Shown in pieces: positions 10,158 through 35,240 of a stretch of 50,937 nucleotides of DNA (position 1 is the first letter of the stretch; each line of letters opens with the position of its first letter). The position numbers were made by a program, and so were the translations under genes. Source of the stretch: a virus (Duplodnaviria; Heunggongvirae; Uroviricota; Caudoviricetes); the IMG/VR virus record IMGVR_UViG_2541047814_000001; one strand, 5' to 3'. The notes beneath the pieces were generated by a model. The model saw only the letters and a program-made list of their open reading frames with translations. It was not told the DNA's origin and did no database searches.

Positions 10158-10222
10158 TTCTCTGCGTTAATTTTTTTGTCGTGATATAAGAATAATTCCT
10201 TACACTTAATCTTCGTAACTCT

Positions 10223-10262: not shown

Positions 10263-10267
10263 TCTTT

Positions 10268-11589: not shown

Positions 11590-11599
11590 AAACCGGGAT

Positions 11600-12298
11600 T
11601 TACTGCGAAAGTTTATTAATGGAAAGGAAACCGCCAAAATTGCCGACATTCCTGCGCAGTTCACACCCGCGCATGCACTTGCTGCATCTGTCCTTACGGA
11701 TATCCGTGGTGGGGTTGTCGAACTCATCCGCCACCGCAGGACCGTTATACCCGCATTCATCTCCCCGGTAATCCCACATACAGGTGTTCGCCAGCATGAT
11801 GCGACCGGGAAACAGCGCCCCGTCCGTCTCGGTCGGTGTAGCCAGCACAAACGAGGCCGTCATGGCTGTCAGCTGCGACATCTGCTCCACCACCCAGCGG
11901 TCACTCAGCTCCTGCTCCGGGTCCGCCTCCGGATTGCCCGCAACGAAATTCACCGCATCCAGAAAACGGGCATACACCCGGCGGCGGACCACCGTGGCCC
12001 CCACCAGACTCTGCAGGTCTTCCGCCATCCCGGTGACCAGACCGAACAGATTGGACACCGTCAGCGACGGTCTGGCACTGCTGCCCCGGCCGTTCATCTC
12101 AAAGCCGCTGCCGTCAATCGGGTATGCCTCATACTTACGCCCCTGCCAGGTGACCGGCTCCCCTTTTTCATTCAGCTCATTACAGAAAAAATACCGCTCA
12201 CCACCCTGTACCGTCAGGTCGATTTCCCAGAGTACCACCCGCGGTGACTGCTCTGACTTAACCGACTCGTTCAGACTTTCTTCTCGAATATCCTGCAT
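11600..12298 (-). CDS. L: Minor tail protein L (232 aa)
   Basis: Length equals lambda L; position between M and K; C-terminal Cys cluster. Confidence 0.9.
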   Translation of the reverse strand: MQDIREESLNESVKSEQSPRVVLWEIDLTVQGGERYFFCNELNEKGEPVTWQGRKYEAYPIDGSGFEMNGRGSSARPSLTVSNLFGLVTGMAEDLQSLVGATVVRRRVYARFLDAVNFVAGNPEADPEQELSDRWVVEQMSQLTAMTASFVLATPTETDGALFPGRIMLANTCMWDYRGDECGYNGPAVADEFDNPTTDIRKDRCSKCMRGCELRRNVGNFGGFLSINKLSQ

Positions 12299-12627
12299 CA
12301 GTTCACCACCTGCTTAAACTCCGCGCTGAACTCAACGCGCAACATCCCGACCCGCGCAGACCACCCGGCACAGGTCACCTTTATCTGCCGGTATGCATAG
12401 GGTGGCTTCCACAAAAATGCCTTCCAGCCACCGTGCTCTGCCAGGAACGCTTCCAGATGCCGGGCCTCCTCCCGGGTCACGGAAAGCGTCACCCTGTATG
12501 TTTTCAGGTCAGCATTCAGCCCTGCCGCCATACGCTGTGAGTACCCGTCACCAAAACGCACTTCACGCACCGATGGCTGCGAGTTCACCTCCATATCCGG
12601 CTTCACTTTCCAGCGAAAGGTTTTCAT
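12298..12627 (-). CDS. M: Minor tail protein M (109 aa)
   Basis: Length and position as lambda M; start overlaps H stop. Confidence 0.9.
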   Translation of the reverse strand: MKTFRWKVKPDMEVNSQPSVREVRFGDGYSQRMAAGLNADLKTYRVTLSVTREEARHLEAFLAEHGGWKAFLWKPPYAYRQIKVTCAGWSARVGMLRVEFSAEFKQVVN

Positions 12628-15197: not shown

Positions 15198-16049
15198 ATC
15201 TCACACCTCCCGGAATCCCCGCTGAAGCCATCATTAATGCGGCATCATCCACCATGACATCCGCCACATCCGCAGACGATAAAATATCGCGCCCTCCGTC
15301 CCCACCGAACCGGACGCCTCCGGCAAGTCCTGCCGCTTTCTGCATCAGCATTTTGTCCTCATCCGGCCTCTCCACCTGCTCTTCCTCATGCCGGGGGACA
15401 AGCAGACTGAAATCAGAGGGATGCATATCCGGATCGCAAAAAAACAGGCTGAGTACAGCGTACGTCAGCCCGGAAAAATGCATATCCAGCTGGGTATCCT
15501 GAAAATAATGCGTGCGGTAAAAACGGTGCCAGTCGGCATATTCGGTGGATGTCATCCCGGCAAGCATGGCGCGCCAGTCGGGTCTCCCCATCTCACGCGC
15601 CAGTCTGAGGGCAAAGTTCAGCTCGCCGTCGAAGACTTTCCCGCAGAAAAATCATCATCAGTCAGCGTGTTATTTTTCGCCACTTCAGTAATATCAGTAT
15701 CCGGACGAACAGCTTCGATCATCCCGGACAGGCACAACACCACGTCTTCCGCCCGGGCAATGGCATCGGCAGGCCAGGTGGTGAGCACTTCCTGCTCTAT
15801 CTTCATCACGGCCTCATTCATTGACGGTGACTGCGTTTTCTGTGGATGGTTATGCCACAGGGACATCGCCACCAGAAACGCGCCGGTTCTGACGAGATCT
15901 TCCACGCTTACCTGCAGGTTGCCGCAGGATTCTGCCTGTTCTGCACGCCGTTTCAGGAGGGCAAGATGCTCGATACGCTGCAGCGCAGACAATTCGGAAA
16001 GCGTGACAGACACACCGTTATATTCAAATTGTTCTGTTTTCAGAAACAT
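15178..16049 (-). CDS. T: Tail assembly chaperone G-T fusion made by programmed -1 frameshift
   Basis: Slippery heptamer GGGAAAG on the minus strand (plus coords 15626-15632) near the end of G; T-frame ORF 15178-15591 continues in the -1 frame, as in lambda. Confidence 0.7.
15618..16049 (-). CDS. G: Tail assembly chaperone G (143 aa)
   Basis: Position between V and T; contains the slippery site near its 3' end. Confidence 0.85.
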   Translation of the reverse strand: MFLKTEQFEYNGVSVTLSELSALQRIEHLALLKRRAEQAESCGNLQVSVEDLVRTGAFLVAMSLWHNHPQKTQSPSMNEAVMKIEQEVLTTWPADAIARAEDVVLCLSGMIEAVRPDTDITEVAKNNTLTDDDFSAGKSSTAS

Positions 16050-16062
16050 GTATTACCTCCGT

Positions 16063-16815
16063 TTACCCTGCAGCGCCCGCTTCAGTAACGGTGACTTCAG
16101 CCACTGCGGCGAACTGACCATTTCCGCTCACCACAGGGATCTGCACCTTACCTGTCGCCACGCCGTTTACCGTAATTGTCATATCTTTCACACTAATGGT
16201 GGCTTTCGACGGATCGGCGGAAACCGCTCTGAACGTCTTGTCGGTTGCACTTTCCGGCTCAAAAGAAACCGTCAGGGTGGTTGTTTTCCCTTTTGCCACC
16301 GTACCGGATGTCGGCGTCACCTTAATCGCACTGACCGGCGTAATTTTGCTGCGTTCTTCCGCTACAGAAGGTTTACCCACGTTAGTGACTTTCACCGTGC
16401 GGGTGATCACTTCTTTCGCCGTCACGGCCTTACCGATACTGCTGACCCAGCCACGAAACACATCCACCGTGCCATTCGGAAAACGGATTTTATAGGCCCG
16501 GACATCGCCGCTTTCAAACCAGCCTATAAGCCCTTTCTGGCCTTCCTCTCCCGGTTTCCAGGCCAGCGTAAAACTGGTATCACCTGCAGATTTCTGCCCC
16601 TGCCCGGTCGCGGTCCAGTCCGCGTCTTCATCATCCAGGTAGTTATCATCGTAGGATTCTGCCGTCATCTCGCCCGGCGTCAGATCCTTCACCTTAGCCA
16701 GTCGCTGCCAGTCATCGTCTGACAACGGGTTTGCATAAGCATCACCCTTGCCGTTGTAAACCCACAGAGTGGTACCGGCACCTTTTACCGGCTCAAGGGG
16801 ATTTGGTGTTGCCAT
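16063..16815 (-). CDS. V: Major tail protein V (250 aa)
   Basis: [20 protein letters not shown]... N-terminus and C-terminal Ig-like region as in lambda V. Confidence 0.9.
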
Positions 16816-16822
16816 ATCGTCC

Positions 16823-17218
16823 TCACATCTCGTATGTAATGGAATAAGTCAGATCTGCAGAACTCCATAACGCCATATCGTCATCACGACGATACTCATA
16901 GCCCTGCGTAACCATCGTGGTAATCAGTCCTGCCAGTGCCGGGATCGCGGTCATCGCCGGGTAAATCCGGCTTTCCATCCACTGATCAAGCTCTGAATCC
17001 GGTACCTGTGCCGGTAAAAACACCTCAATATGCAGCGTGGCCCGCCAGGTATCTGCATCCAGCTCTTCACCGGTATACTCTGCATCCGTCAGATAAACCG
17101 CGATCGCAGGAAAATCCTCTTCGTCAAAAACAACGGGGCGACCATCAAACAGCGTCGCCCCGTGTTCATGCTGCTCGAGTGCATCCAGCACTGCGGCACG
17201 AATGTCAGTGTGTTTCAT
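16823..17218 (-). CDS. U: Tail terminator protein U (131 aa)
   Basis: Same length as lambda U; gene order. Confidence 0.85.
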
Positions 17219-17790
17219 CGTTTTATCGCAATCCTCAGTTGTTGTTTCAGCGCGTATGCCAGTTCTTTAGGCAGGCGTTCACGCCGGATACGGTCAACAT
17301 TCTCATCAAATGCCTGTTTCAGTGGGGCCGCCATCGGGATTTTCACCACCTGAATGGGAAGGCGATTACGCTTTTTCCTTCCCTTGTCGTCATTGCCCTC
17401 CTCATATCTGGCCTGGGGAAGACGTTGCATAACATGCCAGCGCCCATTATTTAATCGCTGGATAAATGCCCGCTGATAACGATGCTGACCGGCTTTGAGT
17501 ATGCTGTCCGGACGACGCCCCAGCATTCTGATCCCCAGCTTAATCACAGGGAGATCACCGCGGTTAACGATAATTCTGGCATTCGGATTTCTGACCGTCG
17601 CCCGTTTCAGTCTGGACCGTTCCTTTACCAGTTTCCGTCTCACCCTGGTTTCCCGGGCAACCTGTGACGAAGACTGATTAATCGCCGTTATGGCCACGCG
17701 GTTAATGGTCATTGCAGAAGCAGCCGGAATGGCGTTTTTACGAACCCGGCTCAGATTGTCAATCGCCTGATCAAGCCCTTTTATCGCCAT
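17215..17790 (-). CDS. Z: Tail completion protein Z (191 aa)
   Basis: Length and order as lambda Z. Confidence 0.85.
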   Translation of the reverse strand: MAIKGLDQAIDNLSRVRKNAIPAASAMTINRVAITAINQSSSQVARETRVRRKLVKERSRLKRATVRNPNARIIVNRGDLPVIKLGIRMLGRRPDSILKAGQHRYQRAFIQRLNNGRWHVMQRLPQARYEEGNDDKGRKKRNRLPIQVVKIPMAAPLKQAFDENVDRIRRERLPKELAYALKQQLRIAIKR

Positions 17791-17804
17791 AATTCACCCT
17801 GCGT

Positions 17805-18158
17805 TTATCGTCGCCGGTTAACTGCGGGTGGTTGCCCACGGTTGAGCCAGAGATAACAGCTGCCCCCGTCATCCGGAGAAACACGATCCACCCAGAATGT
17901 CTCACCATTAATGGTCAGCGTGTCACCACGCCGCACGGCACGCACCGTATCCGTCCGCACAAATAATGACGGGCAGCTTCCTTCAATACGGACCCCGCCA
18001 CCGGCAACCCCCAGCGACTCCGGATCGTCAAAAACCCCCTGAACTTCGCTGCCACACTGTGCCCCCGAGGTGAACTGCGCACAGAGTCCCATCACTTCAA
18101 CGATCGTACTGTCTACCCCGGCGAGGGCAGCATCAAAGGCATTCTGAAAATCACGCAT
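17805..18158 (-). CDS. FII: Head-tail connector protein FII (117 aa)
   Basis: Length and order as lambda FII. Confidence 0.85.
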   Translation of the reverse strand: MRDFQNAFDAALAGVDSTIVEVMGLCAQFTSGAQCGSEVQGVFDDPESLGVAGGGVRIEGSCPSLFVRTDTVRAVRRGDTLTINGETFWVDRVSPDDGGSCYLWLNRGQPPAVNRRR

Positions 18159-18532
18159 ATTCAGCCGTTCCGTGCTGTATCATGGCCGTTGCCAGTGATG
18201 ATGGCACCAGAACACGCATACCCCGTAACGCCAGCTCAACGGGACGACCTGTCTCCGGGCAATACCCCATTACTTGCAGGCACTTCCGTACCCGGACGGC
18301 TTTAACATCATCCGGAGCATCCGTGTTGTTCAACTGCTCACCATCGTCTGTGTGATTTTGATCAGCCCCGCTCTCATCAGAGTGCATAATGCCCTCCGGG
18401 GAAACAGCAAGCTCCTCTTCCCACTCAGACACACGTTGCGCAATATCCGCAGCACTCCCCGACATATCCGCCTCGCGCCCCAGCAGGCCAGCCAGTTGAC
18501 GAAGACGATTCAGATTTTCTTCTTTTGTTGCC
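18151..18532 (-). CDS. FI: DNA packaging protein FI-like (127 aa from the internal ATG)
   Basis: AGGAGG 6 nt upstream of ATG at 18530-18532 (MATKEENLNRL...); acidic protein between E and FII. Confidence 0.65.
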
Positions 18533-18585
18533 ATCTCAGCCTCCTGTGAAAAAAGACACGGGGGCATTTCGCCCCCGCTCACGGA

Positions 18586-19614
18586 TTATTTCACCTGCAC
18601 CACCACAAACTCATCCGGATCCGGCAGCACCATCAGCGGTGCGGACTGCGTCATGGTGAATTCACGGGCCGGATCGCCCACAGTCAGCCAGTGTTTCGGA
18701 TAACGGGAAGAGGCCACCACACCTTCGGACAACGCCTGCGCATCCTGAATGGCACCATAGCAACGAATGCCCTCTGCTGCCGTATTCCCCAGGACCAGTG
18801 TGCCCACCGGCAGATAACGTTTTTCGGTACCGTCGTCTGCCACATAAGACGTTTTCGCCACCACAATGGCCAGATCACCGTAATACCCTTTGAAAGACAC
18901 CACCGCTCCCAGGTCTTTCACTGCCGTTTCGAGTTGTGAATTTGAGCCGCGACGGGTATCCAGTTTTTCGCGGAACAGCTTAAAGCCATTCAGCAGACGC
19001 CAGACCGTACCGTCCATAATGGCAATATTTACAAGACCGCTGGCCTGATCGCAGTAAAGGTCAATATCATGCGTCGGATCAAACGTATCACGGTCCTGCT
19101 CAGACCATTTTTTACCGTCGGCCTGCTCAATGTTATTTCCTTCAGAGCGTCCGAAATCCACCTCGACCGTGTCAAACTGTTCCCCTTCCATGGTGTATTT
19201 GCCATACAGCACGGCATTCACCGCCTGCATTTCTTCCACCTGGACAATGGCGTGCTCTTCCTGTTTGAGGTTATCGGTAATGATACGCAGACGACGGTAG
19301 GCCGGGTCGTTCAGCTGAGCCGGATCTTCACCAGGAAGGCGCTCAACCGCCTGCTGGTAATTAAATTCGTGTTTGGGCTTGACGTAGCCCGGACGTAACA
19401 CGCGGGTTTCACCACCGCGATGGCGAAGCACTTTTCCTTCAACGATCGGGGAGACATAGGCCGCCACCGGCGTTTTTCCGGTAATTTTGTCCAGCATCAC
19501 CTCTTCGGTGTGGAAATTCACCGTACGGCGGAAAAACAGCTCCAGAAACAGCGCACGGAATTTAACTTTTTGTTCGGTATAACCGAGTAACTGGCGGGTC
19601 GTAAACAATCCCAT
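18586..19614 (-). CDS. E: Major capsid protein E (342 aa)
   Basis: Motifs shared with lambda E, e.g. KYTMEGEQFDTVEVDFGRSE, KLDTRRGSNS and the C-terminal GDPAREFTMTQSAPLMVLPDPDEFV. Confidence 0.95.
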   Translation of the reverse strand: MGLFTTRQLLGYTEQKVKFRALFLELFFRRTVNFHTEEVMLDKITGKTPVAAYVSPIVEGKVLRHRGGETRVLRPGYVKPKHEFNYQQAVERLPGEDPAQLNDPAYRRLRIITDNLKQEEHAIVQVEEMQAVNAVLYGKYTMEGEQFDTVEVDFGRSEGNNIEQADGKKWSEQDRDTFDPTHDIDLYCDQASGLVNIAIMDGTVWRLLNGFKLFREKLDTRRGSNSQLETAVKDLGAVVSFKGYYGDLAIVVAKTSYVADDGTEKRYLPVGTLVLGNTAAEGIRCYGAIQDAQALSEGVVASSRYPKHWLTVGDPAREFTMTQSAPLMVLPDPDEFVVVQVK

Positions 19615-23346: not shown

Positions 23347-25258
23347 TCACTCCTCCGGACAGCTTCGCTGCCAGTTCTTTAAGGGTTGGCCGGGTCGTCT
23401 CTTCTTCCCGGGATTTTGCCAGTACAGCCAGATCAAGCTGCCAGCGTTGCACGGACACACGTAATGCCGCATAGGCATACACCAGGCAGTCCAGCGCTTC
23501 GTTACGCCGCTTTTTGTTATCCCACAGCAGACGCATCTTTCCTTTTTCCCACTTCTCCACAAGCTCTTCCGCGACCAGTTGCTGCGCCTCTGTCTGCGAA
23601 AAAATCTCCGGATCATCAGGAAAACGGATGGCATACGACGTGGCTTCATCCGCAGGCGTGGGATCGGCTTTCATACGGGCATAGAGAATTTCTTTTGCGG
23701 TGTCCGTCCCCACTTCACACAGATACACGCCCCGCTGATTGCGGGTTTTCGGCATGGTGATCACCGGCTTGCCATAGACAGATGCGCCTTTTACCGGCAG
23801 CACCCGGAAAACACCGTGTTTTTTTGACCTCTGATAGACAATTTCACCATCGATCCCCCCGGTGTCCCAGCAGACACGGGAAATGGTCATTTCGGTTCCG
23901 TCTGCATGGCAGTATTTTTTGTTGATCGCCGCATCCACACGTAACAGCGTCTCTTCCTCATCGGGACGGCCCATAATGATGATTTTATCCACCAGAAAAG
24001 CTTCCTCTCCCGGTGCCCATCCCCAGACATACATCTCAAAACGGTTTCGCTGCGAGTCAATGCCCGCCGTCAGATAAACCACCCGGGCTGGCACCGCCGC
24101 CGTGTAATGCACGACCTTATCCATCAGTACCTGGTGATCGAGTTTTTCGCCCACGGCCTCTTCCCAGGTCTCGCCCAGCGTGGTGTTCACAAAGGTTTTC
24201 AGGCCGTTGGGATCTTTCAGTGCATCCAGCCAGTCATAGACTATCTGTACCCAGGTGGTGAACGGACTGTACGCCGTCCAGATATGGAACGTGATGGAGC
24301 GCGGCGGCGGAATTTCATTATCCGCGGCGCTGAAAAACGTCAGACCGTCACGGGTCCACATCCCCGTGTTTTCACAGATCCACCGCCCGTTGCTCTGGTC
24401 AAGCTCAGACTGATGGATCACGCAGCCATGATGTTCACAGAGGTAGAAAACGCTTTCGGGGCTGTCCTTCTCCCATTTAAGGCCAAAAGGCGTGGATTCA
24501 TCGCCAAATTTCAGATACTGCTCCTCCCCACAGTGTGGGCAGGGCACATAAAAACGCATGAAATGCGCCGACTCGTTGGCCGCTTTTTCGATCTGGCAGG
24601 TGCCTTTGATTTTAGGCGTCGAGCCGCGAATGGATTTGGGCCATACAGAGCCCTCAATACGTTTATCCCCAAGCAGGGTTGGCGAACCCTCTTTTTCGAC
24701 ATCCGGTTCGAACGAGGAAAGTTCGTCATAGCAGACCACGTCCACGGATTTTTCACGGTAGTTTTTAGCGGCAGCCCCGCCCAGGCACCAGAAGCCCACG
24801 CCCGATGAAAAACGTTTCAGCGTGAGGGTATTATCACGATGTTTACGCCCAAACCACGGTGCAAGATCGAGTAAAACCGGCACATCCCTGATCGTGGGTT
24901 CCACATGAGATTTCATAAAATCTTCAGCAGCAGAATCCGTGGGCTGGAAAAGAAGGCTGTTGCGTGATTTATGCTCAATAAAATAAGCCTCCACTCCCAG
25001 CAACATCTTTGTATAACCAACACGGGCAGATTTAATCAGATTAACAGTGCGGATCCGGTCATTCCCCATGCTGTTCATGATGGCAACCTGAAACGGCAGT
25101 GTTTCCCACCGCCCCGGGGTGTAAGATGACTCTTTCGGAAGGTAATAATGTCGATCTGCCCACTGAACTGTCGTCAGAGGGACAGGAATTTTTAGCGCAA
25201 GGAGGCCGGTTGCTATCGCTCCTGCAGAATTAGCCGCCCTCAGTTCGTCTGAAATCAT
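23330..25258 (-). CDS. A: Terminase large subunit A (about 642 aa; start chosen at MISDELR..., N-terminal ~40 aa diverged from lambda)
   Basis: Extensive lambda A-like motifs ([36 protein letters not shown]); overlaps Nu1 3' end as in lambda. Confidence 0.9.
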
Positions 25259-25778
25259 CAATCCACCTGCGCACATTCTCACCGGCTTCAGAAGCCACAT
25301 CGGATGCTTTCGCGATTTCAGTTTTCACAGCATCAAGATGTACGGGTGATATATCAGGGTATTTACGCTGCAGTGTCTGAGGGACACGGACAAGGATCCC
25401 TGATATATTCTGTGCCACTCGCTGAAAGATGTAGGTAAATAACTCCGTCTCGAGGACAAGGCCTTCCTCACGAGCATTTTTCAGCTCCTGTGCATCGGCC
25501 TGTGCCTTCGTCAGTCGGTAACGTTCGTAATCAATGGTGCCGGGCTGAAGGTCTGATTCGCTGGCAGCCCTCAAATCCTCGATCTCTTTACGGAGTTTTT
25601 CGTTTTCAATATCAGCTTCCCTCTGCGCATACCACTGAATGGCAGCAGTTGTATCAAAAACTGATTCAGTCCCTTTCCCTCCACCAGAAACTAGTGGTAA
25701 CCCCTGACTCTGCCAGGCGGTGATGGTCCTGACATCAACGCCAAAAATATCGGCCAGTTTTTTCTTATTGACGTTCAT
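25230..25778 (-). CDS. nu1: Terminase small subunit Nu1 (182 aa)
   Basis: [28 protein letters not shown]... matches lambda Nu1 N-terminal wHTH. Confidence 0.9.
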
Positions 25779-25947
25779 ACACTCCCCCGGGAACCAGAAA
25801 GGATCTGAAAATGGCGTTTTCTAACAAAAACAGCCTTTGTCAGATCCTTTTATATTTTTAAAATTCTATTGATAATCAATCAGTTAAAAAGAAGAAGAAC
25901 GGATCTGATTTTTCCCTAAAAATTTTCATAAATAGCGAAAACCCGCG

Positions 25948-25959
25948 AGGTCGCCGCCC
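25948..25959 (-). other. cos: cosN cohesive-end site (5'-GGGCGGCGACCT-3' on minus strand); cosB between here and nu1
   Basis: Minus strand reads ACGGGGCGGCGACCTCGCGGGTTTTCGCTATTTATGAAAA, the lambda cos sequence. Confidence 0.8.
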
Positions 25960-26048
25960 CGTAACCGGTCGGATCGCCGGAAAGGACCCACGAAAATGAT
26001 AATGATTATCATCTATATAAGGTTTATCACAACATGTGTGAACCGCCC

Positions 26049-26473
26049 CGGGAATCCTGGAGACTAAACTTCCTGAGAAAGAGGTAAACAGGATGACTAA
26101 AAATACTCGTTTTTCCCCCGAAGTCCGTCAACGGGCAGTCCGTATGGTTCTGGAAAGTCAGAGCGAATATGACTCACAATGGGCGACAATTTGTTCCATT
26201 GCTCCAAAGATTGGCTGTACGCCGGAGACTCTGCGTGTCTGGGTTCGCCAGCATGAGCGGGATACCGGGGGCGGTGATGGAGGGCTCACCACCGCTGAAC
26301 GTCAGCGTCTGAAAGAGCTGGAACGTGAAAATCGTGAACTGCGCCGCAGTAACGATATCCTTCGCCAGGCTTCCGCTTATTTTGCGAAGGCGGAGTTCGA
26401 CCGCCTCTGGAAAAAATGATGCCACTGCTGGATAAGCTGCGTGAGCAGTACGGGGTCGGACCGCTATGCAGCG
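26049..26473 (+). mobile_element. Truncated IS3-family element (IS629-like): left IR, orfA and the first ~20 codons of orfB
   Basis: Left end TGAACCGCCCCGGGAATCCTGGAGACTAAACTTCC; orfA complete; orfB frame ([19 protein letters not shown]) breaks after about 20 codons. Confidence 0.7.
26093..26419 (+). CDS. IS3-family transposase OrfA (108 aa, IS629-like)
   Basis: [23 protein letters not shown]... with HTH and leucine zipper typical of IS3 OrfA. Confidence 0.8.
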
Positions 26474-26579
26474 AACAATCAATTATGACGCAGGTATCGT
26501 ATTAATTGATCTGCATCAAATTAACGTAAAAGCAACTTCAGATAATACAAATCAGCAACACTGAATATGGGGAAACATT

Positions 26580-26765
26580 ATGTCATCAAAGAACAGAACC
26601 CGCAGAACAACAACCCGCAACATCCGATTTCCAAACCAGATGATTGAACAAATTAACATCGCTCTTGATCTGAAAGGTTCAGGAAACTTTTCAGCGTGGG
26701 TTATTGAAGCCTGCAGAAGAAGGCTGTCAACAGAGAGTTCGGGTATGAATTACATAATTAAGTAA
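26580..26765 (+). CDS. YlcI/YnfO-like small protein (DUF3950-like, 61 aa)
   Basis: MSSKNRTRRTTTRNIRFPNQMIEQINIALDLKGSGNFSAWVIEACRRRL resembles cos-proximal YlcI/YnfO proteins of K-12 lambdoid prophages (from memory). Confidence 0.5.
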   Translation: MSSKNRTRRTTTRNIRFPNQMIEQINIALDLKGSGNFSAWVIEACRRRLSTESSGMNYIIK

Positions 26766-27528
26766 CATGGTGTTCACAGAACACGCAGTTACCGGACACA
26801 TCAGTTTTCCATTCGCTCCCCGGCAGTACAGGCTTCCCCTCTGACGGGATAGCCTGAAAAAATAACACAGAAAATTATTTGTTATAATTAATATAACTTA
26901 CTCAAAAAAAAGCGACGAGAAAATCAGCATCAACGAACAATAAGCGCCAATACGTGATAACAAATGGCAGCCATATTTATCTGCAGTATAAGCAATGGAC
27001 AGGATAACCACACCAGAAACCGTCAGCATAAAATCCACTTGAACTTCCCCGGACAAAATCGACTCATCTAAAGATTTACAGCTCTTTTTATTATCAATAT
27101 GTTAAAAGTAAAATAAACAGATGTTCAATAACACGAATACAAAAACGTGCTGAAATTCAATGAATCCATTTCTGTGTCATCAATTAATAGTGATAAACAT
27201 CCGGTTTCTTCCACCATCGCACCGGACAGGCGACTATGAGGGGACAACGCCGCGCTCCGTTAACGCGGTAAACCCCGGTGTGTATCGTTTTTGATTATCC
27301 CCGCACACTCGCGCAGAGGAGTCTCCCTGTCGGGCTGCGGTCTCTGTTAATGAGGGAATACAGCGACGATACGGCGCATCAACAAAACTTATTTCAGGCA
27401 CTGAGTACGGATATATTCCTGCGCCCCTTCCAGTTTATGAGACGACAATAACTCAGTCCGCCTGGCGCCGATTATTCTGGCCGGTTTTGTAACCTGAGTG
27501 TCATTTACATGATCCAACAGGAAATGGC

Positions 27529-29028
27529 GTGACGCTCAATACTTCTCAGGTCAGTTACTATATGACTCAGCGTAAGAAAGGTATAACTCAGCATATCTCG
27601 GCCATGAAGGCTGGTATCTCAGTCCGTTCTGGTCGTCGGATCGAAAAAGGAGAGTGGGCAAAAAACAGTGTTCGGCACTGGCGCACACGCAAAGATCCTC
27701 TGGAAGCTGTGTGGGACAGCATGCTTGTTCCTCTGTTGAAAGAGAGGCCGGCTCTGACACCAACAACTCTGCTGGAGATGCTACAGGATAAATATCCCGG
27801 CCAGTACCCCAACAGCCTTCGAAGAACAATGCAACGGCGGGTCCGCGAATGGAAGCTACAGTATGGTGCAGAGCAGGAGGTCATGTTCCGCCAGCGACAT
27901 CAGCCCGGTCTGCGAGGTCTGTCGGACTTTACTGAACTGAAAGGTGTAGTTGTCACCATCGCCGGTAAGTTGTTGGCGCATAAGTTGTATCACTTCCGTC
28001 TGGAATGGAGCCACTGGAGCTGGATGCGGGTTGTGCTGGGTGGTGAGAGCTTCTCTGCTCTGGCTGAAGGTCTGCAGGAAGCCCTCGGACAACTGGGCGG
28101 AGTGCCGGTAGAACATAAAACGGACAGCCTGAGGGCAGCATGGAAACAACAGGGCGAAGATGGACGCCGCGAGCTGACTGAGCGTTATGCTGCTCTCTGT
28201 CAGCACTACGGAATGCAGGGCGTACACAATAATGCCGGTCGGGGCCACGAAAATGGCTCGGTTGAAAGTGCCCACGGACATCTGAAAAGGCGTATCTGTC
28301 AGGCGCTGATACTGCGGGGCAGTAACGACTTCAGCACCATAGAAGAATATCAGGCCTTCATCACTCAGCAGGTTATGCGGCACAACCGTAACAATCAGGA
28401 TCTGGTCAAGGAAGAACGTCTTCATCTGAAACCGCTGCCGCTTCGTCGCAGTGCTGACTATGATGAGCTGACTGTGAGGGTTAGCCGCAGCAGTACCATC
28501 AATGTGAAGCACGTCGTCTACAGCGTACCTTCCCGGCTTGTAGGTCAACTGTTACGGGTCCGGTTATGGGACGATCGTCTGAGCTGTTACGTTGGCAGCA
28601 GCGAGGTCATGAGCTGCCCACGTGTCAGACCAGAAAAAGGGAAGACGCGGGCCCGTCGTATCGACTTCCGACATGTGATCGACAGTCTGGCAAAAAAGCC
28701 CGGTGCGTTCTGCCATGCAACGCTGAGAAATGACATCCTGCCAGACGATGAATGGCGGAGGCTGTGGCGTCGCTTATGTAATCATCTGGAACCCGACATG
28801 GCAGGCAGGCTGATGGTACATGCTCTGAAACTGGCTGCAGGATACGACGATATCTCAGTCGTGGCAAAAGGTATGGAGCAGATGCTGAATACCCCGGGAA
28901 ACGTGGATCTGCACCGGCTGATGCGCTTCCTGGGTATAAAGGAAAAGGCGTTGCCGGTAGTCAATGTGAAACAGCATAACCTGAGCAGTTATGAGCAACT
29001 ACTGCGTGGCAAGGGAGGTTCGCAGTGA
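27529..29028 (+). CDS. istA: IS21-family transposase IstA (499 aa)
   Basis: N-terminal HTH, DDE-type core, typical IstA length; followed by istB. Confidence 0.85.
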   Translation: MTLNTSQVSYYMTQRKKGITQHISAMKAGISVRSGRRIEKGEWAKNSVRHWRTRKDPLEAVWDSMLVPLLKERPALTPTTLLEMLQDKYPGQYPNSLRRTMQRRVREWKLQYGAEQEVMFRQRHQPGLRGLSDFTELKGVVVTIAGKLLAHKLYHFRLEWSHWSWMRVVLGGESFSALAEGLQEALGQLGGVPVEHKTDSLRAAWKQQGEDGRRELTERYAALCQHYGMQGVHNNAGRGHENGSVESAHGHLKRRICQALILRGSNDFSTIEEYQAFITQQVMRHNRNNQDLVKEERLHLKPLPLRRSADYDELTVRVSRSSTINVKHVVYSVPSRLVGQLLRVRLWDDRLSCYVGSSEVMSCPRVRPEKGKTRARRIDFRHVIDSLAKKPGAFCHATLRNDILPDDEWRRLWRRLCNHLEPDMAGRLMVHALKLAAGYDDISVVAKGMEQMLNTPGNVDLHRLMRFLGIKEKALPVVNVKQHNLSSYEQLLRGKGGSQ

Positions 29029-29780
29029 GCAATATCCATCACCTTGAACGCAGCCTGCGTAAACTACGCCTGACACGAGTTGGAGCTGAATGGCACGCTC
29101 TGGAAAAACGAGCACTGGCAGAAGGCTGGACACCATCGCGCTATCTTCTGACGCTATGCAATGAAGAACTCCTGTGGCGCGAGAGTGAAAAACTGCGTCG
29201 TTATAAAAAGGAGGCCCGGTTGCCAGTTGCCAAAACGCTAAGCGAATACGACTTCAGTCAGGTGCCGGAACTGAATGGAGCTCAGTTCCGGCAACTCTGT
29301 GAAACGACAGACTGGGTTGATGCAGGAGAAAACGTTCTGCTGTTCGGAGCCAGCGGGTTGGGGAAAAGCCATCTGGCGGCAGCGATCGTGGATGGCGTAG
29401 TAGGCCAGGGCTACCGGGCCCGGTTCTACAGCGCAGGAGAGTTGTTGCAGGAACTACGTAAAGCCAGAGCGCAGTTGAAACTGAATGAGCTGCTACTGAA
29501 ACTGGATCGCTACCGGGTGATAGTGGTGGATGATCTTGGCTATGTCAAACGCGACAGCGCCGAAACGGGAGTACTGTTCGAGTTAATAGCGCATCGCTAT
29601 GAACGTGGGAGCCTGGTGATAACCAGTAACCATCCGTTCAGCATGTGGGGCAGCATCTTCGTGGATGAGACTATGGCGGTGGCGGCGGCAGACCGGCTGA
29701 TCCATCACGGATATATGTTCGAACTGAAAGGTGAAAGCTACAGGAAAAAGACAGCGAAGGCAGTAACAAGCGCGACTTGA
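29025..29780 (+). CDS. istB: IS21-family ATP-binding helper IstB (251 aa)
   Basis: Walker A GASGLGKSHLA and Walker B VIVVDDLGY. Confidence 0.85.
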   Translation: MSNIHHLERSLRKLRLTRVGAEWHALEKRALAEGWTPSRYLLTLCNEELLWRESEKLRRYKKEARLPVAKTLSEYDFSQVPELNGAQFRQLCETTDWVDAGENVLLFGASGLGKSHLAAAIVDGVVGQGYRARFYSAGELLQELRKARAQLKLNELLLKLDRYRVIVVDDLGYVKRDSAETGVLFELIAHRYERGSLVITSNHPFSMWGSIFVDETMAVAAADRLIHHGYMFELKGESYRKKTAKAVTSAT

Positions 29781-29828
29781 TGTCGCACTGAAGGGTGCGG
29801 CCAGTATAGTTGGCGCGAGTCGGCAAAA

Positions 29829-30272
29829 CTAGTTGACGTCTAATACCAGTTGCTTCTGCATCGTCATCAGCCGCTCTCTGAGGGTGAAATAATCCCGTGT
29901 AACGGTGTCTGCCAGTTGGGGGCCGGTTGCATTATCCACGCGGGCGGTGCCGGTGGCTTCACGCACGGGACCTGGACAGGTGGCGTTGATACGCAGGCGC
30001 TTACGACCAGCGGCAACGTCAGCGCGAAGAGTTTCATTTTCAGCTTTCGCATCAGCTAACTCCTTCGTGTATTTTGCATCGAGCGCAGCAACATCACGCT
30101 GACGCATCTGCATGTCAGTAATTGCCGCGTTCGCCAGCTTCAGTTCTCTGACATTTTTGTCGCGCTGGGCTTTGTAGGTAATGGCGTTATCACGGTAATG
30201 ATTCAGCCCCAGACTAAGCGCACCACAGGCCACCAGCAGGGCAATGATGACCACGCACAGTACGCGGTTCAT
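29829..30272 (-). CDS. Rz: i-spanin Rz (147 aa)
   Basis: N-terminal TM segment then coiled coil; directly downstream of endolysin; contains embedded Rz1. Confidence 0.8.
29867..30052 (-). CDS. Rz1: o-spanin Rz1 lipoprotein, embedded in Rz in the +1 frame (61 aa)
   Basis: Lipobox ...VVSAC followed by proline-rich [29 protein letters not shown], as in lambda Rz1. Confidence 0.75.
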
Positions 30273-30570
30273 TTCACCACCAGCGTATCTGACCGATGAA
30301 ATAACCGGAGGCCATAATCACAAACACCAGCCAGATAAGAATGAACTTCCAGGTGGATAATTTTTCAGCCATCACTCGAATCTCCCGAATCAGTTTGCTA
30401 AAATCAAACACACTTTCTCCTTTGACTTTTCCGGAGTCAGGAAACACAAAACCCCGCTTGGTGCCAACAAACGGGGTTTTTACTTTTATTCACTTACGTT
30501 TCGCCAGTTCGCAGGATTTCGTGTTATCCGCCCGCGTGGCCATACCTTATTTTTCAGCAAAATATTCTGC

Positions 30571-31104
30571 TTATCTGTCGATTCCCCAGCACGCCAGCGC
30601 GCTCTCCTGGTCACGACGGGATACCTGACCGTAGCAGTTGTTTGAACGAATACGGCAGTCTCTGCCACCGTCCTTAATCCACCAGCGAATCGCCTCACAC
30701 GCTCCCCTGCGATCACCTGCATTAATTCGTTTATAAAACGTCGACGGGAAACACTTACCGGGACCAATGTTGTACGGACAGAATGACGCGATCCCCGCTT
30801 TCTGGGGTTCACTCAATGGCACTCTGATGTTTTTCTCCACCCATGCCAGCGCCTTATCACGCTCAATGGCGTTAACCCGGTCGCATTTTTCCTTCGACAA
30901 CTTCATGCCCGGAACGACAGGTTTGCCATCCACCAGGATGGCACCGCGGCAGATGGTCCAGATACCCGCACCATCACGGTATGCCGTGGTGTGGTTACCT
31001 TCCTTTTCATCCAGAAACTGGTCGAGAATGTCAGGCGCAGGCGCACCAGCGGCAATCAGCGCCAGAACGGCAGCCGACAGGCCGTATCTGATTTTTGCGT
31101 TCAT
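30571..31104 (-). CDS. R: Endolysin R, T4-type lysozyme (GH24) with SAR-like N-terminus (177 aa)
   Basis: E-D-T catalytic region DEKEGNHTTAYRDGAGIWTICRG; hydrophobic Ala/Gly-rich N-terminal segment. Confidence 0.85.
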   Translation of the reverse strand: MNAKIRYGLSAAVLALIAAGAPAPDILDQFLDEKEGNHTTAYRDGAGIWTICRGAILVDGKPVVPGMKLSKEKCDRVNAIERDKALAWVEKNIRVPLSEPQKAGIASFCPYNIGPGKCFPSTFYKRINAGDRRGACEAIRWWIKDGGRDCRIRSNNCYGQVSRRDQESALACWGIDR

Positions 31105-32162: not shown

Positions 32163-34016
32163 TTATGATGATGCCGGTGCATTTATCTCCAGCACCAGAC
32201 TTTCTATCTCAACGCCATACGCTGCATTTTTGGTAATATCCGTCAGCGTCAGCGCATTCAGCCCCAGTGTCAGACTGTCTTTTATGACCTGGAATGCCGG
32301 GCCAGCCACTCCATTCAGTTTCGGAGTAACCGTGGCACTGCCGGCGGTGAACACCAGCTCCAGCGTCTGCCAGTCGTTACTGTAATTCCCGAACTCGCCC
32401 AACTTTGTGTTTCCTGCTTTCTTGTGATGCATCAGATTCAGTTTGCCGTCTGTGGTCTGGGTGAAGAACGACATCAGGAACGGGTTACCAGTCCCGGTCA
32501 TCGCCACGACGTCAGGTAACGCTACATCGGTATACAGATAAATTCCCAGACCGAACTGGTTGTTGGTCAGTGCGCCTGACAGTCGAAACTTACAGCTCAG
32601 TCTGCCACCCCGTGTCAGCAGGGAGACTGCGTCATCCACCGGGCGCGTCAGGGACCAGGCTTTATTGCTCTGCTTGGTGATCTTAAATACACCATCTGAC
32701 AACTGAATTCCGCCATTCTTAATGCTCCAGCCCTGCGCAGCAGCGTCTCCGGCTGTCGGCAACAGGGAGATTGTGCGTATGGATGCATCTTCAGACGGCC
32801 CCGATGGCGTGTCGCCGCCGGGCGAGGCTTTGATTTCCGGTGCCTTACCACTAATGAAGGCTAAGGTGCGACCGGCTACGTTCAGAATAGCCGTTGCCAT
32901 ACGATCGGGAATAATGCCACGACGCGCCCATGAGCTGAAATGCGTCGGGCGATTTGATGATACCCAGTTTTTGTTCGTTCGGGATGCCGAACCGTAATAA
33001 CCAGACCCGGCAATATCAGGATCTTCTGACGGGTTGTTTGTCGGTGTATTAACTCCGCTACCATCGGTCATAAAGGGAACAAAATAAATCTGCTGGGATT
33101 CTTTACCTTTATATGCACCATATACCACTTCATATTGCGTACCGTGTTCTTGTTTCCACGCGTATGTCGTGTCGCCACAAATCCAGGGGACTGATGCCGG
33201 ACTTCCACCGTGACACTGCGCCGCCAGCCCGGCAAGGTCAGCACGGAACTGCTGTACCATTGCAAGAAATGCTGCTGGCTGCTGGGCGTAACTGGCATTC
33301 GTCATATCGAATTCCCCCTGCATCCAGCATATCGCCAGCAAAACGTTTTTCGGGTTTTTCTGCAATGCTGCCTTCGTGCGGAAAAGCAGATCCTGATATA
33401 ACGGCTTACCCACTCCCCAGCGAGCCGAATCCTGACTGGCTCCCGTGGACTCGCTGAATGTCCCCTCCGTGCCCTGGGTGAATGCCGAACCACCACGACA
33501 GCATGGTACCAGCAGGATCCCCGCATTATTAGGGATATACGGAAGCAGTTTTTTGGCAATATGTAAGCCCTGTCCGACACAGCCGTACTGCCCTTTGCTC
33601 AGGTCAGCCCGGGGATGGTTAATCGTACTCATATCCTGAACATCATGCAGACAATGGTCAGCAGGAATGATGTCGTTAAATACGCATACTTCACCACCGG
33701 GAGTCACTGTGTTACGACGGGCCAGTTGCTTAATGCGCGGATGGGGCGCATCGTATGAATCCGGAAGCGGAAGCCCTTCACCGTAAGCCATGGCATTGGA
33801 TTGCCCGGCCAGTACGATGACGTAGTACCACTCCGGCTCAGTTGCACCACTGACGACCACATCACCTTCTGCTGCAATCGCCTGCATCAGGGTATAAGGG
33901 GTTATGGCCACCGGACTACCAAACGGCTGCCAGCCCTCCTTCAGTTTTTGTGTCAGTCGTTTCGCAAGGTCTGACGGCGATGCCGCCCTGACCACGTCAT
34001 AGTGTTTAAATGCCAT
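32163..34016 (-). CDS. nanS-p: Prophage sialate O-acetylesterase NanS-p-like (DUF1737 N-terminus + SGNH/SASA esterase, 617 aa)
   Basis: SGNH motif LAGQSNAMAYGEG; N-terminal MAFKHYDVVRAASPSDLAKRL domain; position downstream of Q/tRNAs as in Stx phages. Confidence 0.75.
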   Translation of the reverse strand: MAFKHYDVVRAASPSDLAKRLTQKLKEGWQPFGSPVAITPYTLMQAIAAEGDVVVSGATEPEWYYVIVLAGQSNAMAYGEGLPLPDSYDAPHPRIKQLARRNTVTPGGEVCVFNDIIPADHCLHDVQDMSTINHPRADLSKGQYGCVGQGLHIAKKLLPYIPNNAGILLVPCCRGGSAFTQGTEGTFSESTGASQDSARWGVGKPLYQDLLFRTKAALQKNPKNVLLAICWMQGEFDMTNASYAQQPAAFLAMVQQFRADLAGLAAQCHGGSPASVPWICGDTTYAWKQEHGTQYEVVYGAYKGKESQQIYFVPFMTDGSGVNTPTNNPSEDPDIAGSGYYGSASRTNKNWVSSNRPTHFSSWARRGIIPDRMATAILNVAGRTLAFISGKAPEIKASPGGDTPSGPSEDASIRTISLLPTAGDAAAQGWSIKNGGIQLSDGVFKITKQSNKAWSLTRPVDDAVSLLTRGGRLSCKFRLSGALTNNQFGLGIYLYTDVALPDVVAMTGTGNPFLMSFFTQTTDGKLNLMHHKKAGNTKLGEFGNYSNDWQTLELVFTAGSATVTPKLNGVAGPAFQVIKDSLTLGLNALTLTDITKNAAYGVEIESLVLEINAPASS

Positions 34017-34238: not shown

Positions 34239-34241
34239 GTC

Positions 34242-34430
34242 CATAAGAAAGCCCCTCCGGAGAGGGGCTAAAGCCGCGTATCTGTATCATCATGCACATG
34301 GTGCCGGGTGCCTCCCGGTGAGTTCAGCCCGGTGCCACTAAACCCGCGTCATTCTCGTTTTGATAATCAGAGATTATACCGTCACCAGTCGCCCCTCCGC
34401 TCAGGGGGATTCACCATGCGAAATTTTTTT
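34242..34430. repeat. Direct repeat unit 1 (about 180 bp, imperfect) with GCCCCTCCGGAGAGGGGC hairpin
   Basis: Shares blocks with 34735-34915 (aaagcccctccggagaggggct, ggtgccgggtgcctcccggtga, cccctccgc.cagggggattcaccatgc, tgaattgtgag). Confidence 0.6.
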
Positions 34431-34734
34431 AACAAATGCCCAGTCTGACAGGCAACTGTCAACTTACTGAATTGTGAGCAACATAGCATTTAACGGGGAA
34501 CCTGTTTTCTGCAGTAAAAAGGCCCACCGGAGCGGATGGGCCTGGAAGGATAGCGGTCATGTGATGCCGGTTTCCCGGTAACTCAGCACCGGTATCTGAG
34601 TCAACGTTTTCTCTACTGGGTCATTTCCGATACGCCCTGCCTGCTGACAGGCTTTCATCACATCTGAAAATATAGCACCCTGACTGATACTGTAGTACCT
34701 AAGGTTCCAGAAACTGTGATGTATCCGGCACAGA

Positions 34735-34915
34735 AAAGCCCCTCCGGAGAGGGGCTGGAGAGTGGCGCTATGTGCCATTGCATGGTGCCGGGTGCCTCCC
34801 GGTGAATTCAGTACCAGCACCTGAATCCGCGATTATCCCATATACCTACTCGCTGATTGCCCCTCCGCACAGGGGGATTCACCATGCCAGTTTCTTTTAA
34901 CAAACTCCCCGCAAA
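34735..34915. repeat. Direct repeat unit 2 (partner of 34242-34430)
   Basis: Same conserved blocks in the same order and orientation. Confidence 0.6.
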
Positions 34916-34989
34916 CCAGACAACAGTCAACCGCCTGAATTGTGAGACATTTAAAAAAAGCCCGCAAAAGCGAGCCAGGGAAAATAAGT

Positions 34990-35067
34990 GTGGCGCGTTG
35001 TACTGGATTCGAACCAGTGACCGATTGCTTAGAAGGCAATTGCTCTGTCCGGCTGAGCTAACAACGC
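34990..35067 (-). tRNA. tRNA-Arg (anticodon UCU)
   Basis: Minus strand folds as cloverleaf; anticodon loop CTTCTAA; T-loop TTCGAAT; 3' CCA encoded. Confidence 0.8.
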
Positions 35068-35080
35068 AGGATACAGATAA

Positions 35081-35157
35081 TGGACCGCCTTCGGGGACCC
35101 GAACTCCGCGCAACCAGCTTCGAAAGCTGGCGCTCTTTCCTGATGAGCTAATGGCGG
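35081..35157 (-). tRNA. tRNA-like gene, probably Arg (anticodon read as UCG); atypical T-arm
   Basis: D-arm GCTC...GAGC, anticodon stem CCAGC/GCTGG with loop TTTCGAA, CCA end; T-stem has one mismatch and T-loop is TTCGGGT. Confidence 0.45.
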
Positions 35158-35164
35158 TATGTGA

Positions 35165-35240
35165 TGGTGGCCCTTGCTGGATTTGAACCAGCGACCTGGC
35201 GATTATGAGTCGCTCGCTCTCACCACTGAGCTAAAGGGCC
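35165..35240 (-). tRNA. tRNA-Ile2-like (anticodon CAU; ileX/ileZ type)
   Basis: GGCCCTTTAGCTCAGTGGTGAGAGCGAGCGACTCATAATCGC...GGGCCACCA; near-canonical cloverleaf, 76 nt. Confidence 0.85.

What the first reader, a model, noticed from the sequence alone, without database searches (positions are those of the whole stretch)
25948..29828. Two IS insertions at the genome right end next to cos and Rz: likely a crippled prophage
cosN is intact, but an IS629-like fragment starts about 90 bp from it (left end at 26049; orfB truncated after about 20 codons), and an IS21-family element with intact istAB ends within about 15-50 bp of the Rz stop. The region that would hold cosQ and bor-like genes is therefore rearranged, which may block packaging termination. 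The truncation point of the IS3-family element (about 26473) suggests a later deletion.
Basis: partly seen in the sequence, partly recalled or inferred. Interest (0 to 1): 0.4.

Follow-up and report, generated by a model that had tools for sequence, protein, structure and literature searches.

The report
Two IS elements beside prophage cos
A lambda-like prophage of E. coli carries an old, harmless stub of IS629 next to its intact DNA-packaging site and a recent, complete ISEc10 that cuts off the tail of the lysis gene Rz, which is ordinary prophage decay that probably impairs cell bursting, not DNA packaging.

Summary
The stated mechanism does not.

**Anatomy**
- cosN is at 25948-25959.
- A 438-bp IS629 stub (nt 1-438 of 1310) lies at 26039-26476, not from 26049.
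- A complete 2410-bp ISEc10 (IS21 family) lies at 27436-29845, with a 6-bp target duplication, CCAGTT.

**Packaging site is untouched**
- The lambda cosQ heptamer GGGTCCT is intact at 25983-25989, with lambda spacing to cosN.
- Against an IS-free relative, only 25 bp of spacer are missing. No bor-like gene is lost.
- The Rz-cos interval is otherwise collinear with that relative.

**The IS629 stub did not stop spread**
- A stub-bearing prophage sits in two E. coli strains whose flanking chromosome differs by 1.3-2.9%.
- The two prophages compared (one from a strain whose flanks match the first at 99.97-100%) differ at 7 of 42,285 bases, and divergence starts at the att sites.
- This points to independent lysogenisation after the stub formed.

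**The real lesion**
- ISEc10 lies inside Rz. It replaces the last 13 residues with VLDVN, and the apparent stop codon is IS-encoded.
- In lambda, removing even the last 2-3 Rz residues abolishes lysis, so a spanin defect is predicted.
- The insertion also raises the genome to about 51.6 kb, roughly 106% of lambda.

All other phage genes look intact. This is ordinary prophage decay and of low interest.

The parts
25230..25778 (-). Terminase small subunit gene (Nu1 homologue), intact
   Evidence: 182-aa ORF. Pfam Phage_Nu1 on the identical gene in L010. 51.6% aa identity to lambda Nu1.
25779..25947 (-). cosB-equivalent spacer between cosN and Nu1
   Evidence: 100% identical to the IS-free relative L004. 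The I2-like part next to cosN aligns with lambda. R sites and the IHF site were not mapped.
25948..25959 (-). cosN 12-nt cohesive-end sequence (reverse complement of GGGCGGCGACCT)
   Evidence: 12/12 identical to the lambda left end.
25983..25989 (-). cosQ-equivalent heptamer (reverse complement of GGGTCCT), intact
   Evidence: Aligns with lambda 48473-48479, with the same 23 nt between it and the cosN overhang. The 7-bp cosQ is described as highly conserved among lambda-like phages (PMC4669245). The exact lambda coordinates of cosQ are from my own knowledge.
26039..26476 (+). IS629 remnant: nt 1-438 of 1310, comprising IRL, intact orfA (26093-26419), the ALIL frameshift pseudoknot (26374-26473) and the first 20 codons of orfB
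   Evidence: The match starts exactly at the annotated IS629 left end in L019, with 3 mismatches in 438 nt. Rfam RF01497 scores 75.9 bits. The same remnant and junctions occur in 6 complete E. coli genomes and 3 IMG/VR contigs.
26476..26477 (.). Deletion junction: the 872-bp right part of IS629 and 25 bp of phage spacer (TGTACGCCATCAAACCACGAGAAAT) are missing
   Evidence: Alignment with the IS-free relative L004. No microhomology at the junction.
26580..26765 (+). ylcI/ynfO-family gene, intact, in the same orientation as in IS-free relatives
   Evidence: Annotated as YlcI/YnfO family protein WP_001329960.1 at the collinear position in L003, L004 and L016.
26898..27038 (-). Small hypothetical gene (46 codons), present as in relatives
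   Evidence: WP_000347013.1 at the collinear position in L003, L004 and L016. Listed as an ORF.
27389..27435 (-). Detached 3' end of Rz (codons for EGAQEYIRTQCLK plus the stop), including the left copy of the target duplication CCAGTT (27430-27435)
   Evidence: Joining it to 29852 onward restores a 155-aa Rz that aligns with lambda Rz to its end. The empty site is seen in L003, L004 and L016.
27436..29845 (+). Complete ISEc10 (IS21 family), 2410 bp, with istA (27529-29028) and istB (29025-29780), antisense to the phage late genes
   Evidence: IstA and IstB are identical to WP_000174402.1 and WP_000065240.1. Terminal inverted repeats of 48 nt, 71% complementary. Three other copies (L001, L002, L021) are also 2410 bp and each has a 6-bp duplication. 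Thousands of near-identical copies occur in E. coli.
29829..30272 (-). Truncated Rz (i-spanin): 142 native residues followed by IS-encoded VLDVN and a stop; the right copy of CCAGTT is at 29846-29851
   Evidence: Translations. Pfam Phage_lysis.
29867..30052 (-). Rz1 (o-spanin lipoprotein) embedded in Rz, intact
   Evidence: 61-aa ORF that aligns with lambda Rz1 over its full length.

Best explanation
The window holds a lambda-like prophage integrated at ompW. It is gene-for-gene complete except at its right end, where two unrelated IS events of different age have occurred.

**1. The older event: IS629.** IS629 inserted into non-coding spacer 79 bp outside cosN, 49 bp beyond cosQ. A later blunt deletion removed its right 872 bp and 25 bp of spacer. 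What remains is an immobile 438-bp stub with no right end and no transposase. The stub leaves cosQ, cosN and cosB intact. It was evidently compatible with infectious phage, because the same stub-bearing phage is found integrated in divergent E. coli backgrounds.

**2. The recent event: ISEc10.** In one lineage only, a complete and presumably active ISEc10 transposed into the 3' end of Rz. It duplicated CCAGTT and replaced the last 13 residues with 5 IS-encoded ones.
- The lost segment is the one that contacts Rz1 in lambda, so the spanin complex should fail. After induction, holin and endolysin would still act and kill the cell. The outer membrane would not be disrupted, and progeny would stay trapped in spherical cells unless shear, low divalent cations or a spanin from a co-resident prophage rescued release.
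- The insertion also brings the excised genome to about 51.6 kb, roughly 106% of lambda, at the edge of what a lambda-type head packages efficiently.

**Shown versus inferred.** The anatomy, the empty sites and the population pattern are shown. The spanin defect and the size penalty are inferred.
For: **Anatomy of the insertions**
- ISEc10 ends and the 6-bp duplication.
- The empty site in L003 and L016 overlaps by exactly 6 bp.
- IS629 stub.
- Only 25 bp of phage DNA are missing compared with L004.

**cos is intact**
- cosN and cosQ are conserved, with lambda spacing.
- Lambda 48446-182 holds the whole cos (PMC4856287).

**Order and age of the events**
- 6 of 5426 complete E. coli genomes carry the stub without ISEc10, and none carries both.
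- The double-IS allele is found on 6 contigs.

**Spread of the stub-bearing phage**
- 2017C-4173W12 versus MS 145-7: 7 mismatches in 42,285 bp of prophage.
- GN04592 versus MS 145-7: host flanks only 97.1% and 98.7% identical.
- In that pair, differences begin inside ompW' and ompW, at the att sites.
- GN04592 and 2017C-4173W12 have flanks 99.97-100% identical to each other.

**Rz function**
- Lambda Rz Q151X and C152X are lysis-defective, residues 143-151 are implicated in Rz1 binding, and spanin defects leave spherical unlysed cells (PMC5295617).
- The window Rz ends at the equivalent of lambda L141.

**Rest of the prophage**
- All morphogenesis and lysis ORFs match the lengths of the annotated intact genes.
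- The right 21 kb differs from the MS 145-7 prophage at 1 base.

**Size**
- The att-to-att distance is 49,146 bp in MS 145-7. Adding 2,416 bp for the IS and 3 bp of indels gives the window version.
Against: - No experiment was done. The effect of this particular Rz truncation is extrapolated from lambda alleles. This Rz matches lambda Rz closely only in parts, and VLDVN is a novel tail.
- Spanin mutants of lambda can still release phage in shaken, low-Mg cultures (my knowledge), so 'crippled' may be mild.
- Head proteins are only 47-68% identical to lambda, so the lambda size limit may not transfer.
- The horizontal-spread argument applies to the stub-bearing ancestor, not to the ISEc10-bearing form. 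The prophage and flank comparisons used different strains of one lineage. Mobilisation by a helper phage is not excluded.
- cosB subsites were not mapped.
Confidence: 0.75

Rival explanations
1. One reading: the two IS elements have rearranged the cosQ and bor region, so terminase cannot terminate packaging at the downstream cos and the prophage cannot make filled heads.
For: - Both IS elements lie between Rz and cosN.
- cosQ is required for termination (PMC4669245; PMC4856287).
- 25 bp of spacer are missing.
Against: - The cosQ heptamer and its spacing are intact, and the nearest IS starts 49 bp beyond it.
- The lambda fragment 48446-182 contains the whole cos.
- The interval is collinear with IS-free relatives, and no bor gene exists there.
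- The stub-bearing phage is found in divergent hosts with boundaries at the att sites.
Confidence: 0.05
2. Both insertions are functionally neutral. The prophage is still inducible and infectious because the altered Rz works or is dispensable, or because co-resident prophages supply a spanin, and because 51.6 kb is still packageable.
For: - Every other gene is intact.
- Rz1, holin and endolysin are intact.
- Sakai prophages with defects in head formation or packaging are still packaged, and some transferred, through prophage-prophage interactions (PMC2669165).
- The allele persists on 6 contigs.
Against: - Lambda Rz tolerates loss of only its last residue (PMC5295617). Here 13 residues are lost, including the equivalents of Y147, E150, Q151 and C152.
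- The double-IS allele was not found in 5426 complete genomes, IMG/VR or the GTDB representative genomes. That fits a single non-spreading lineage.
Confidence: 0.17
3. The arrangement is an assembly or chimera artefact created by repeated IS copies.
For: IS629 and ISEc10 are multicopy in E. coli, and such repeats often break or misjoin assemblies.
Against: - The ISEc10 junctions show a perfect 6-bp target duplication, and excision restores the Rz ORF.
- The same junction protein occurs on 6 contigs, including three longer than 1 Mb.
- The stub junction is identical in 6 complete genomes and 3 IMG/VR contigs.
Confidence: 0.01

Closest known systems
IS629 (IS3 family) insertions and remnants in lambdoid prophages of E. 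coli O157 and other STEC
   Same: 99.3% identity to annotated IS629 over nt 1-438, with the same IRL, orfA and frameshift pseudoknot. IS629 is annotated inside many Stx and other prophage records, including an ompW prophage, PPompW_EH2201.
   Different: Only the left third survives, with no OrfB and no IRR, so it cannot move. It sits in non-coding spacer beside cos, not in a gene.
ISEc10 (IS21 family) copies elsewhere in E. coli
   Same: 2410 bp, identical IstA and IstB, 6-bp target duplication.
   Different: This insertion site, 13 codons before the Rz stop, was not found in 5426 complete genomes. Other copies hit the endolysin gene (CH436), nu1 (MS 21-1) and zinT.
Lambda Rz C-terminal nonsense alleles (Q151X, C152X) and Rz amber mutants
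   Same: Loss of the extreme C-terminus of the i-spanin while Rz1, holin and endolysin stay intact. The predicted end state is spherical cells with an intact outer membrane (PMC5295617).
   Different: The truncation here is larger, from the equivalent of E142 onward, and carries a foreign 5-residue tail. It was made by an IS, not a point mutation, and has not been tested.
Sakai prophage Sp4, whose nu1 is disrupted by an IS, and the 'defective prophage pool' of O157
   Same: A lambdoid prophage with an IS lesion next to the packaging module. Such prophages can still be mobilised with help from co-resident phages (PMC2669165).
   Different: Here terminase and cos are intact. The lesion is in the lysis module.
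Lambda cos (cosQ-cosN-cosB)
   Same: cosN matches 12/12, cosQ 7/7, with the same spacing and about 70 bp of homology upstream of cosN.
   Different: The cosB side and Nu1 diverge (51.6% aa identity), so packaging specificity probably differs from lambda.

Membership tests
IS629 (IS3 family) | Nucleotide identity to reference IS629 starting at its left inverted repeat | tested here: met
   435 of 438 nt identical. The match starts at the annotated IS629 left end in LC567824.1.
IS629 (IS3 family) | orfA followed by a -1 frameshift signal with an ALIL-type pseudoknot | tested here: met
   108-aa orfA at 26093-26419. RF01497 at 26374-26473, 75.9 bits against a gathering score of 50.
IS629 (IS3 family) | Complete element: OrfB transposase, right inverted repeat and a short target duplication | tested here: not met
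   The element ends at nt 438 of 1310 and orfB stops after 20 codons. It is a remnant, not a functional member. A target duplication cannot be assessed.
ISEc10 (IS21 family) | Overlapping istA and istB genes with the family domains | tested here: met
   IstA (499 aa) and IstB (251 aa) overlap by 4 nt. Pfam IstB_IS21 on IstB and Mu-transpos_C_2 on IstA. Both are identical to the RefSeq ISEc10 proteins.
ISEc10 (IS21 family) | Defined ends with terminal inverted repeats and a target duplication | tested here: met
   Inverted repeat arms at 27436-27483 and 29798-29845. Four independent copies are all 2410 bp, each with a 6-bp duplication. The empty site is seen in relatives.
ISEc10 (IS21 family) | Match to the ISfinder reference entry | not testable with these tools
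   ISfinder is not available here. The name rests on RefSeq/PGAP annotation of identical proteins.
Lambda-type cos site | cosN: 12-nt cohesive-end sequence | tested here: met
   12/12 identical to lambda at 25948-25959.
Lambda-type cos site | cosQ: conserved 7-bp element upstream of cosN | tested here: met
   GGGTCCT (reverse complement) at 25983-25989, with lambda spacing. Its conservation is stated in PMC4669245.
Lambda-type cos site | cosB: TerS-binding R sites and an IHF site between cosN and nu1 | not tested
   Only shown to be 100% identical to the IS-free relative L004. Subsites were not mapped.
Lambda-type cos site | Actual cleavage by terminase | not testable with these tools
   Needs induced cultures or virion DNA ends.
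Embedded two-component spanin (Rz/Rz1) | i-spanin with an N-terminal transmembrane domain and a periplasmic coiled-coil region; o-spanin lipoprotein embedded in the +1 frame | tested here: met
   Pfam Phage_lysis. Rz aligns with lambda Rz from residue 1, and the embedded 61-aa Rz1 aligns with lambda Rz1.
Embedded two-component spanin (Rz/Rz1) | Intact Rz C-terminal segment (lambda 143-152), needed for the Rz1 complex and for lysis | tested here: not met
   The native sequence ends at the equivalent of lambda L141 and is followed by VLDVN. The requirement is shown in PMC5295617.

The most novel reading that the evidence does not exclude
The IS629 stub might be more than debris. It keeps IRL, an intact orfA and the frameshift signal, is carried unchanged beside cos by a phage found in divergent hosts, and could act as a phage-borne OrfA 'moron' that modulates IS629 transposition in the lysogen. 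OrfA proteins of IS3-family elements are generally regulators of transposition (my knowledge). Nothing tested here supports expression or selection: the stub is identical to a common IS629 variant, and only 6 of 5426 complete genomes carry it.
Probability: 0.04. Interest if true: 0.4.

Novelty: already known. Interest (0 to 1): 0.12.

Why it matters
The finding has limited importance.
- It is a clean, datable example of stepwise prophage decay. A neutral IS remnant travelled with a still-infectious phage. A later, lineage-specific IS hit then probably blocks the last step of lysis and over-fills the genome.
- For annotation, the 147-aa 'lysis protein' is an IS-truncated pseudogene. The true Rz stop lies 2.4 kb away.
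- An IS close to cos does not by itself imply a packaging defect.
- For anyone using this strain, the prophage may kill induced cells without releasing phage efficiently.

Tried and rejected
**Searches for the source or a wider distribution of the double-IS allele**
- The ISEc10/Rz junction was searched for in IMG/VR and in the GTDB representative genomes, with no hits.
- No complete RefSeq E. coli genome has both IS elements.
- The source was found only by exact look-up of the truncated Rz protein.

**Leads that turned out wrong**
- The top hits (H1, H4, H5) looked like the same arrangement. They proved to be unrelated ISEc10 insertions joined to nearby phage matches.
- I first read 27160-27210 as a possible second Rz 3' end and 27207 as the IS left end. 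I rejected this once copy boundaries, the inverted repeat and the ORF restoration placed the end at 27436.
- I first thought the + strand ylcI-like gene meant the segment was inverted. IS-free relatives have the same orientation, so I rejected that.

**Checks that gave nothing**
- The promoter and terminator scan of 25700-30400 gave counts no higher than shuffled sequence. There is no evidence that the IS elements add terminators to the late transcript.
- No paper stating the lambda 78-105% packaging range could be retrieved, and the original cosQ paper is not held. Both points rest on my own knowledge.
Full report
**What is in the window**

The window is a lambda-like prophage integrated at ompW. 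The late genes are on the minus strand and int is at 49807-50937.
- The closest annotated relatives are the ompW prophages of E. coli 2017C-4173W12 (L003) and MS 145-7 (L016). They give a gene-by-gene map.
- In window order, the region of the finding reads as follows: terminase small subunit (25230-25778, -), cos, an IS629 fragment, a ylcI/ynfO-like gene (26580-26765, +), a 46-codon ORF (26898-27038, -), ISEc10, Rz/Rz1, and the lysozyme gene (30571-31104, -).

**Checking the observation**

cosN is present. The reverse complement of GGGCGGCGACCT lies at 25948-25959.

The IS3-family fragment is IS629.
- It matches an annotated 1310-bp IS629 from that element's first base. It covers nt 1-438 with 3 mismatches.
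- orfA (26093-26419) is intact, and orfB stops after exactly 20 codons at 26476.
- Rfam finds the IS3-type ALIL frameshift pseudoknot at 26374-26473.

The IS21-family element is ISEc10.
- IstA and IstB are identical to the RefSeq ISEc10 proteins.
- Its ends are 27436 and 29845. These come from the limits of thousands of copies, from the terminal inverted repeat, and from three other copies that are each 2410 bp with a 6-bp target duplication.
- In the window the duplication is CCAGTT, at 27430-27435 and 29846-29851.

ISEc10 does not end near the Rz stop. It lies inside Rz.
- The ORF at 29829-30272 ends ...[10 protein letters not shown], and its last five codons and stop are IS sequence.
- Deleting the IS and one duplication copy restores a 155-aa Rz ending ...MQKQLEGAQEYIRTQCLK*. 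This aligns with lambda Rz to its end.
- The true stop is at 27389-27391.
- Relatives L003, L004 and L016 show the empty site, with exactly 6 bp of overlap.

**Is cos damaged?**

It is not.
- Aligned with lambda's joined ends, the window keeps cosN 12/12. It also keeps the heptamer GGGTCCT at 25983-25989, with 23 nt between it and the cosN overhang, as in lambda. Homology to lambda runs about 70 bp upstream of cosN.
- The 7-bp cosQ is described as highly conserved among lambda-like phages (PMC4669245). A 238-bp lambda fragment, 48446-182, contains cosQ, cosN and cosB (PMC4856287).
- The window equivalent of that fragment lies entirely to the left of the IS629 stub, which begins 49 bp beyond cosQ.
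- The precise lambda coordinates of cosQ (48473-48479) are from my own knowledge. The original paper was not retrievable.

**What was lost?**
- The IS-free relative FDAARGOS_1290 (L004) is identical to the window from nu1 to the IS629 left end, and again from 26477 onward.
- Between those two points it has only 25 bp that the window lacks: TGTACGCCATCAAACCACGAGAAAT.
It removed 872 bp of IS629, a presumed short target duplication, and 25 bp of spacer. The junction has no microhomology.
- The rest of the Rz-cos interval is collinear with IS-free relatives. These relatives have no bor gene there, so none has been lost.

**Age of the two events, and whether the stub matters**
- Six complete E. coli genomes carry exactly the same stub and junctions without ISEc10. 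So do three IMG/VR contigs.
- None of 5426 complete genomes carries both IS elements.
- The double-IS allele was found only by exact look-up of the truncated Rz protein. It occurs on 6 contigs, one of them a 4.87-Mb chromosome, GCA_964037835.1.
- The stub is therefore older, and ISEc10 is a lineage-specific addition.

Spread of the stub-bearing prophage was assessed with two comparisons against MS 145-7.
- The prophages of 2017C-4173W12 and MS 145-7 differ at 7 of 42,285 bases, with no gaps.
- The chromosomal flanks of GN04592 and MS 145-7 are only 97.1% (left) and 98.7% (right) identical. The prophage ends of this pair are 100% identical.
- In that pair, the last and first host differences fall inside the ompW' fragment and ompW, at the att sites.
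- GN04592 and 2017C-4173W12 have flanks 99.97-100% identical to each other, so I treat them as one host lineage.
- Identity bounded by the att sites, inside divergent chromosomes, points to independent integrase-mediated lysogenisation by a phage that already carried the stub.
- This is population evidence that the stub does not block packaging. Helper-assisted mobilisation is not excluded.

**What the ISEc10 insertion probably does**
- The native Rz ends at the equivalent of lambda L141. The equivalents of lambda Y147, E150, Q151 and C152 are gone.
- In lambda, nonsense codons at 151 and 152 abolish lysis, and only R153 is dispensable.
- Lambda residues 143-151 are implicated in binding Rz1. 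[quoted passage not shown]
- I therefore predict a spanin-null phenotype. Holin, endolysin and Rz1 are intact, so induction would still kill the cell, but release of progeny would be impaired.
- Lambda spanin mutants still release phage in shaken, low-divalent-cation cultures (my knowledge). Co-resident prophages can also complement defects (PMC2669165). The handicap may therefore be partial.

**Genome size**
- The att-to-att distance in MS 145-7 is 49,146 bp. Adding 2,416 bp for the IS and its duplication, and 3 bp of indels, gives about 51,565 bp for the window version.
- That is 106% of lambda's 48,502 bp. The IS-free ancestor would be about 48.7 kb.
- The classical efficient packaging range for lambda is about 78-105% of wild-type length (Feiss et al. 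1977; my knowledge, as no retrievable text gave the numbers).
- The head genes are collinear with lambda's but only 47-68% identical in protein sequence. The limit is therefore only indicative.

**The rest of the prophage**
- All terminase, head, tail and lysis ORFs have the lengths of the annotated intact genes.
- The right 21 kb differs from MS 145-7 at one base, 30284, which is outside Rz.
- 313 of the 317 differences in the left part lie between about 7.5 and 19.5 kb, in the tail and head genes. They look like recombination patches and do not break any ORF.
- A consensus scan found no excess of terminators or promoters in the IS region.

**Verdict**
- The proposed mechanism, a disrupted cosQ and bor region blocking packaging termination, is contradicted by the sequence and by the distribution of the stub-bearing phage.
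- Both IS elements, their target duplications and this kind of prophage erosion are well known. I rate novelty as 'already known' and interest as low.

Noticed in passing
L021 4750-7699 (E. coli CH436); L002 3513-6477 (E. coli MS 21-1); L001 3735-6690: Other ISEc10 copies also interrupt prophage late genes: the endolysin gene in CH436 and the terminase small subunit gene in MS 21-1. Both have istAB antisense to the phage genes. A third copy interrupts zinT. All are 2410 bp with 6-bp duplications (CCAGCG, AGCGTT, CAAAAC). The hit ranking favoured phage-flanked copies, so no target preference can be claimed.
   Followed up: partly
window 34239-34448, 34726-34916 (-) and 34994-35240 (-): Two tandem STnc100 sRNA matches (165 and 136 bits) and three tRNA genes (annotated Arg, Arg, Ile in relatives) lie between the Q/methyltransferase region and a 617-aa SASA-family esterase gene (32163-34016). 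To my knowledge this is the slot where Stx phages carry stx. No toxin gene is present.
   Followed up: no
window about 7500-19500: Nearly all differences from the otherwise almost identical MS 145-7 prophage (313 of 317) cluster in the tail and head gene region. The pattern is patchy and suggests recombination with another lambdoid prophage. The ORFs stay intact.
   Followed up: partly
window 920-1135 and 1970-2184: In the window-versus-MS 145-7 BLAST, each of these two ~216-bp segments also gives a secondary ~90% match at the other's position. They lie among partial tail-fibre-assembly and DUF4376 pseudogenes and flank a SAM-dependent methyltransferase gene (1296-1964). Whether they are direct or inverted repeats was not resolved.
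   Followed up: no
window 27389-27435 (Rz tail) and 29867-30052 (Rz1): The reconstructed Rz has Thr where lambda has E150, and Rz1 has Ser where lambda has R59. This fits the charge-to-polar covariation of that contact pair reported for lambda-family spanins (PMC5295617).
   Followed up: no
AF017626.1 (Escherichia phage 21 int region), 1603-2040: The 438-bp IS629 stub is 100% identical to a segment in a phage 21 integrase-region record, so this IS629 sequence variant is also present in that record.
   Followed up: no
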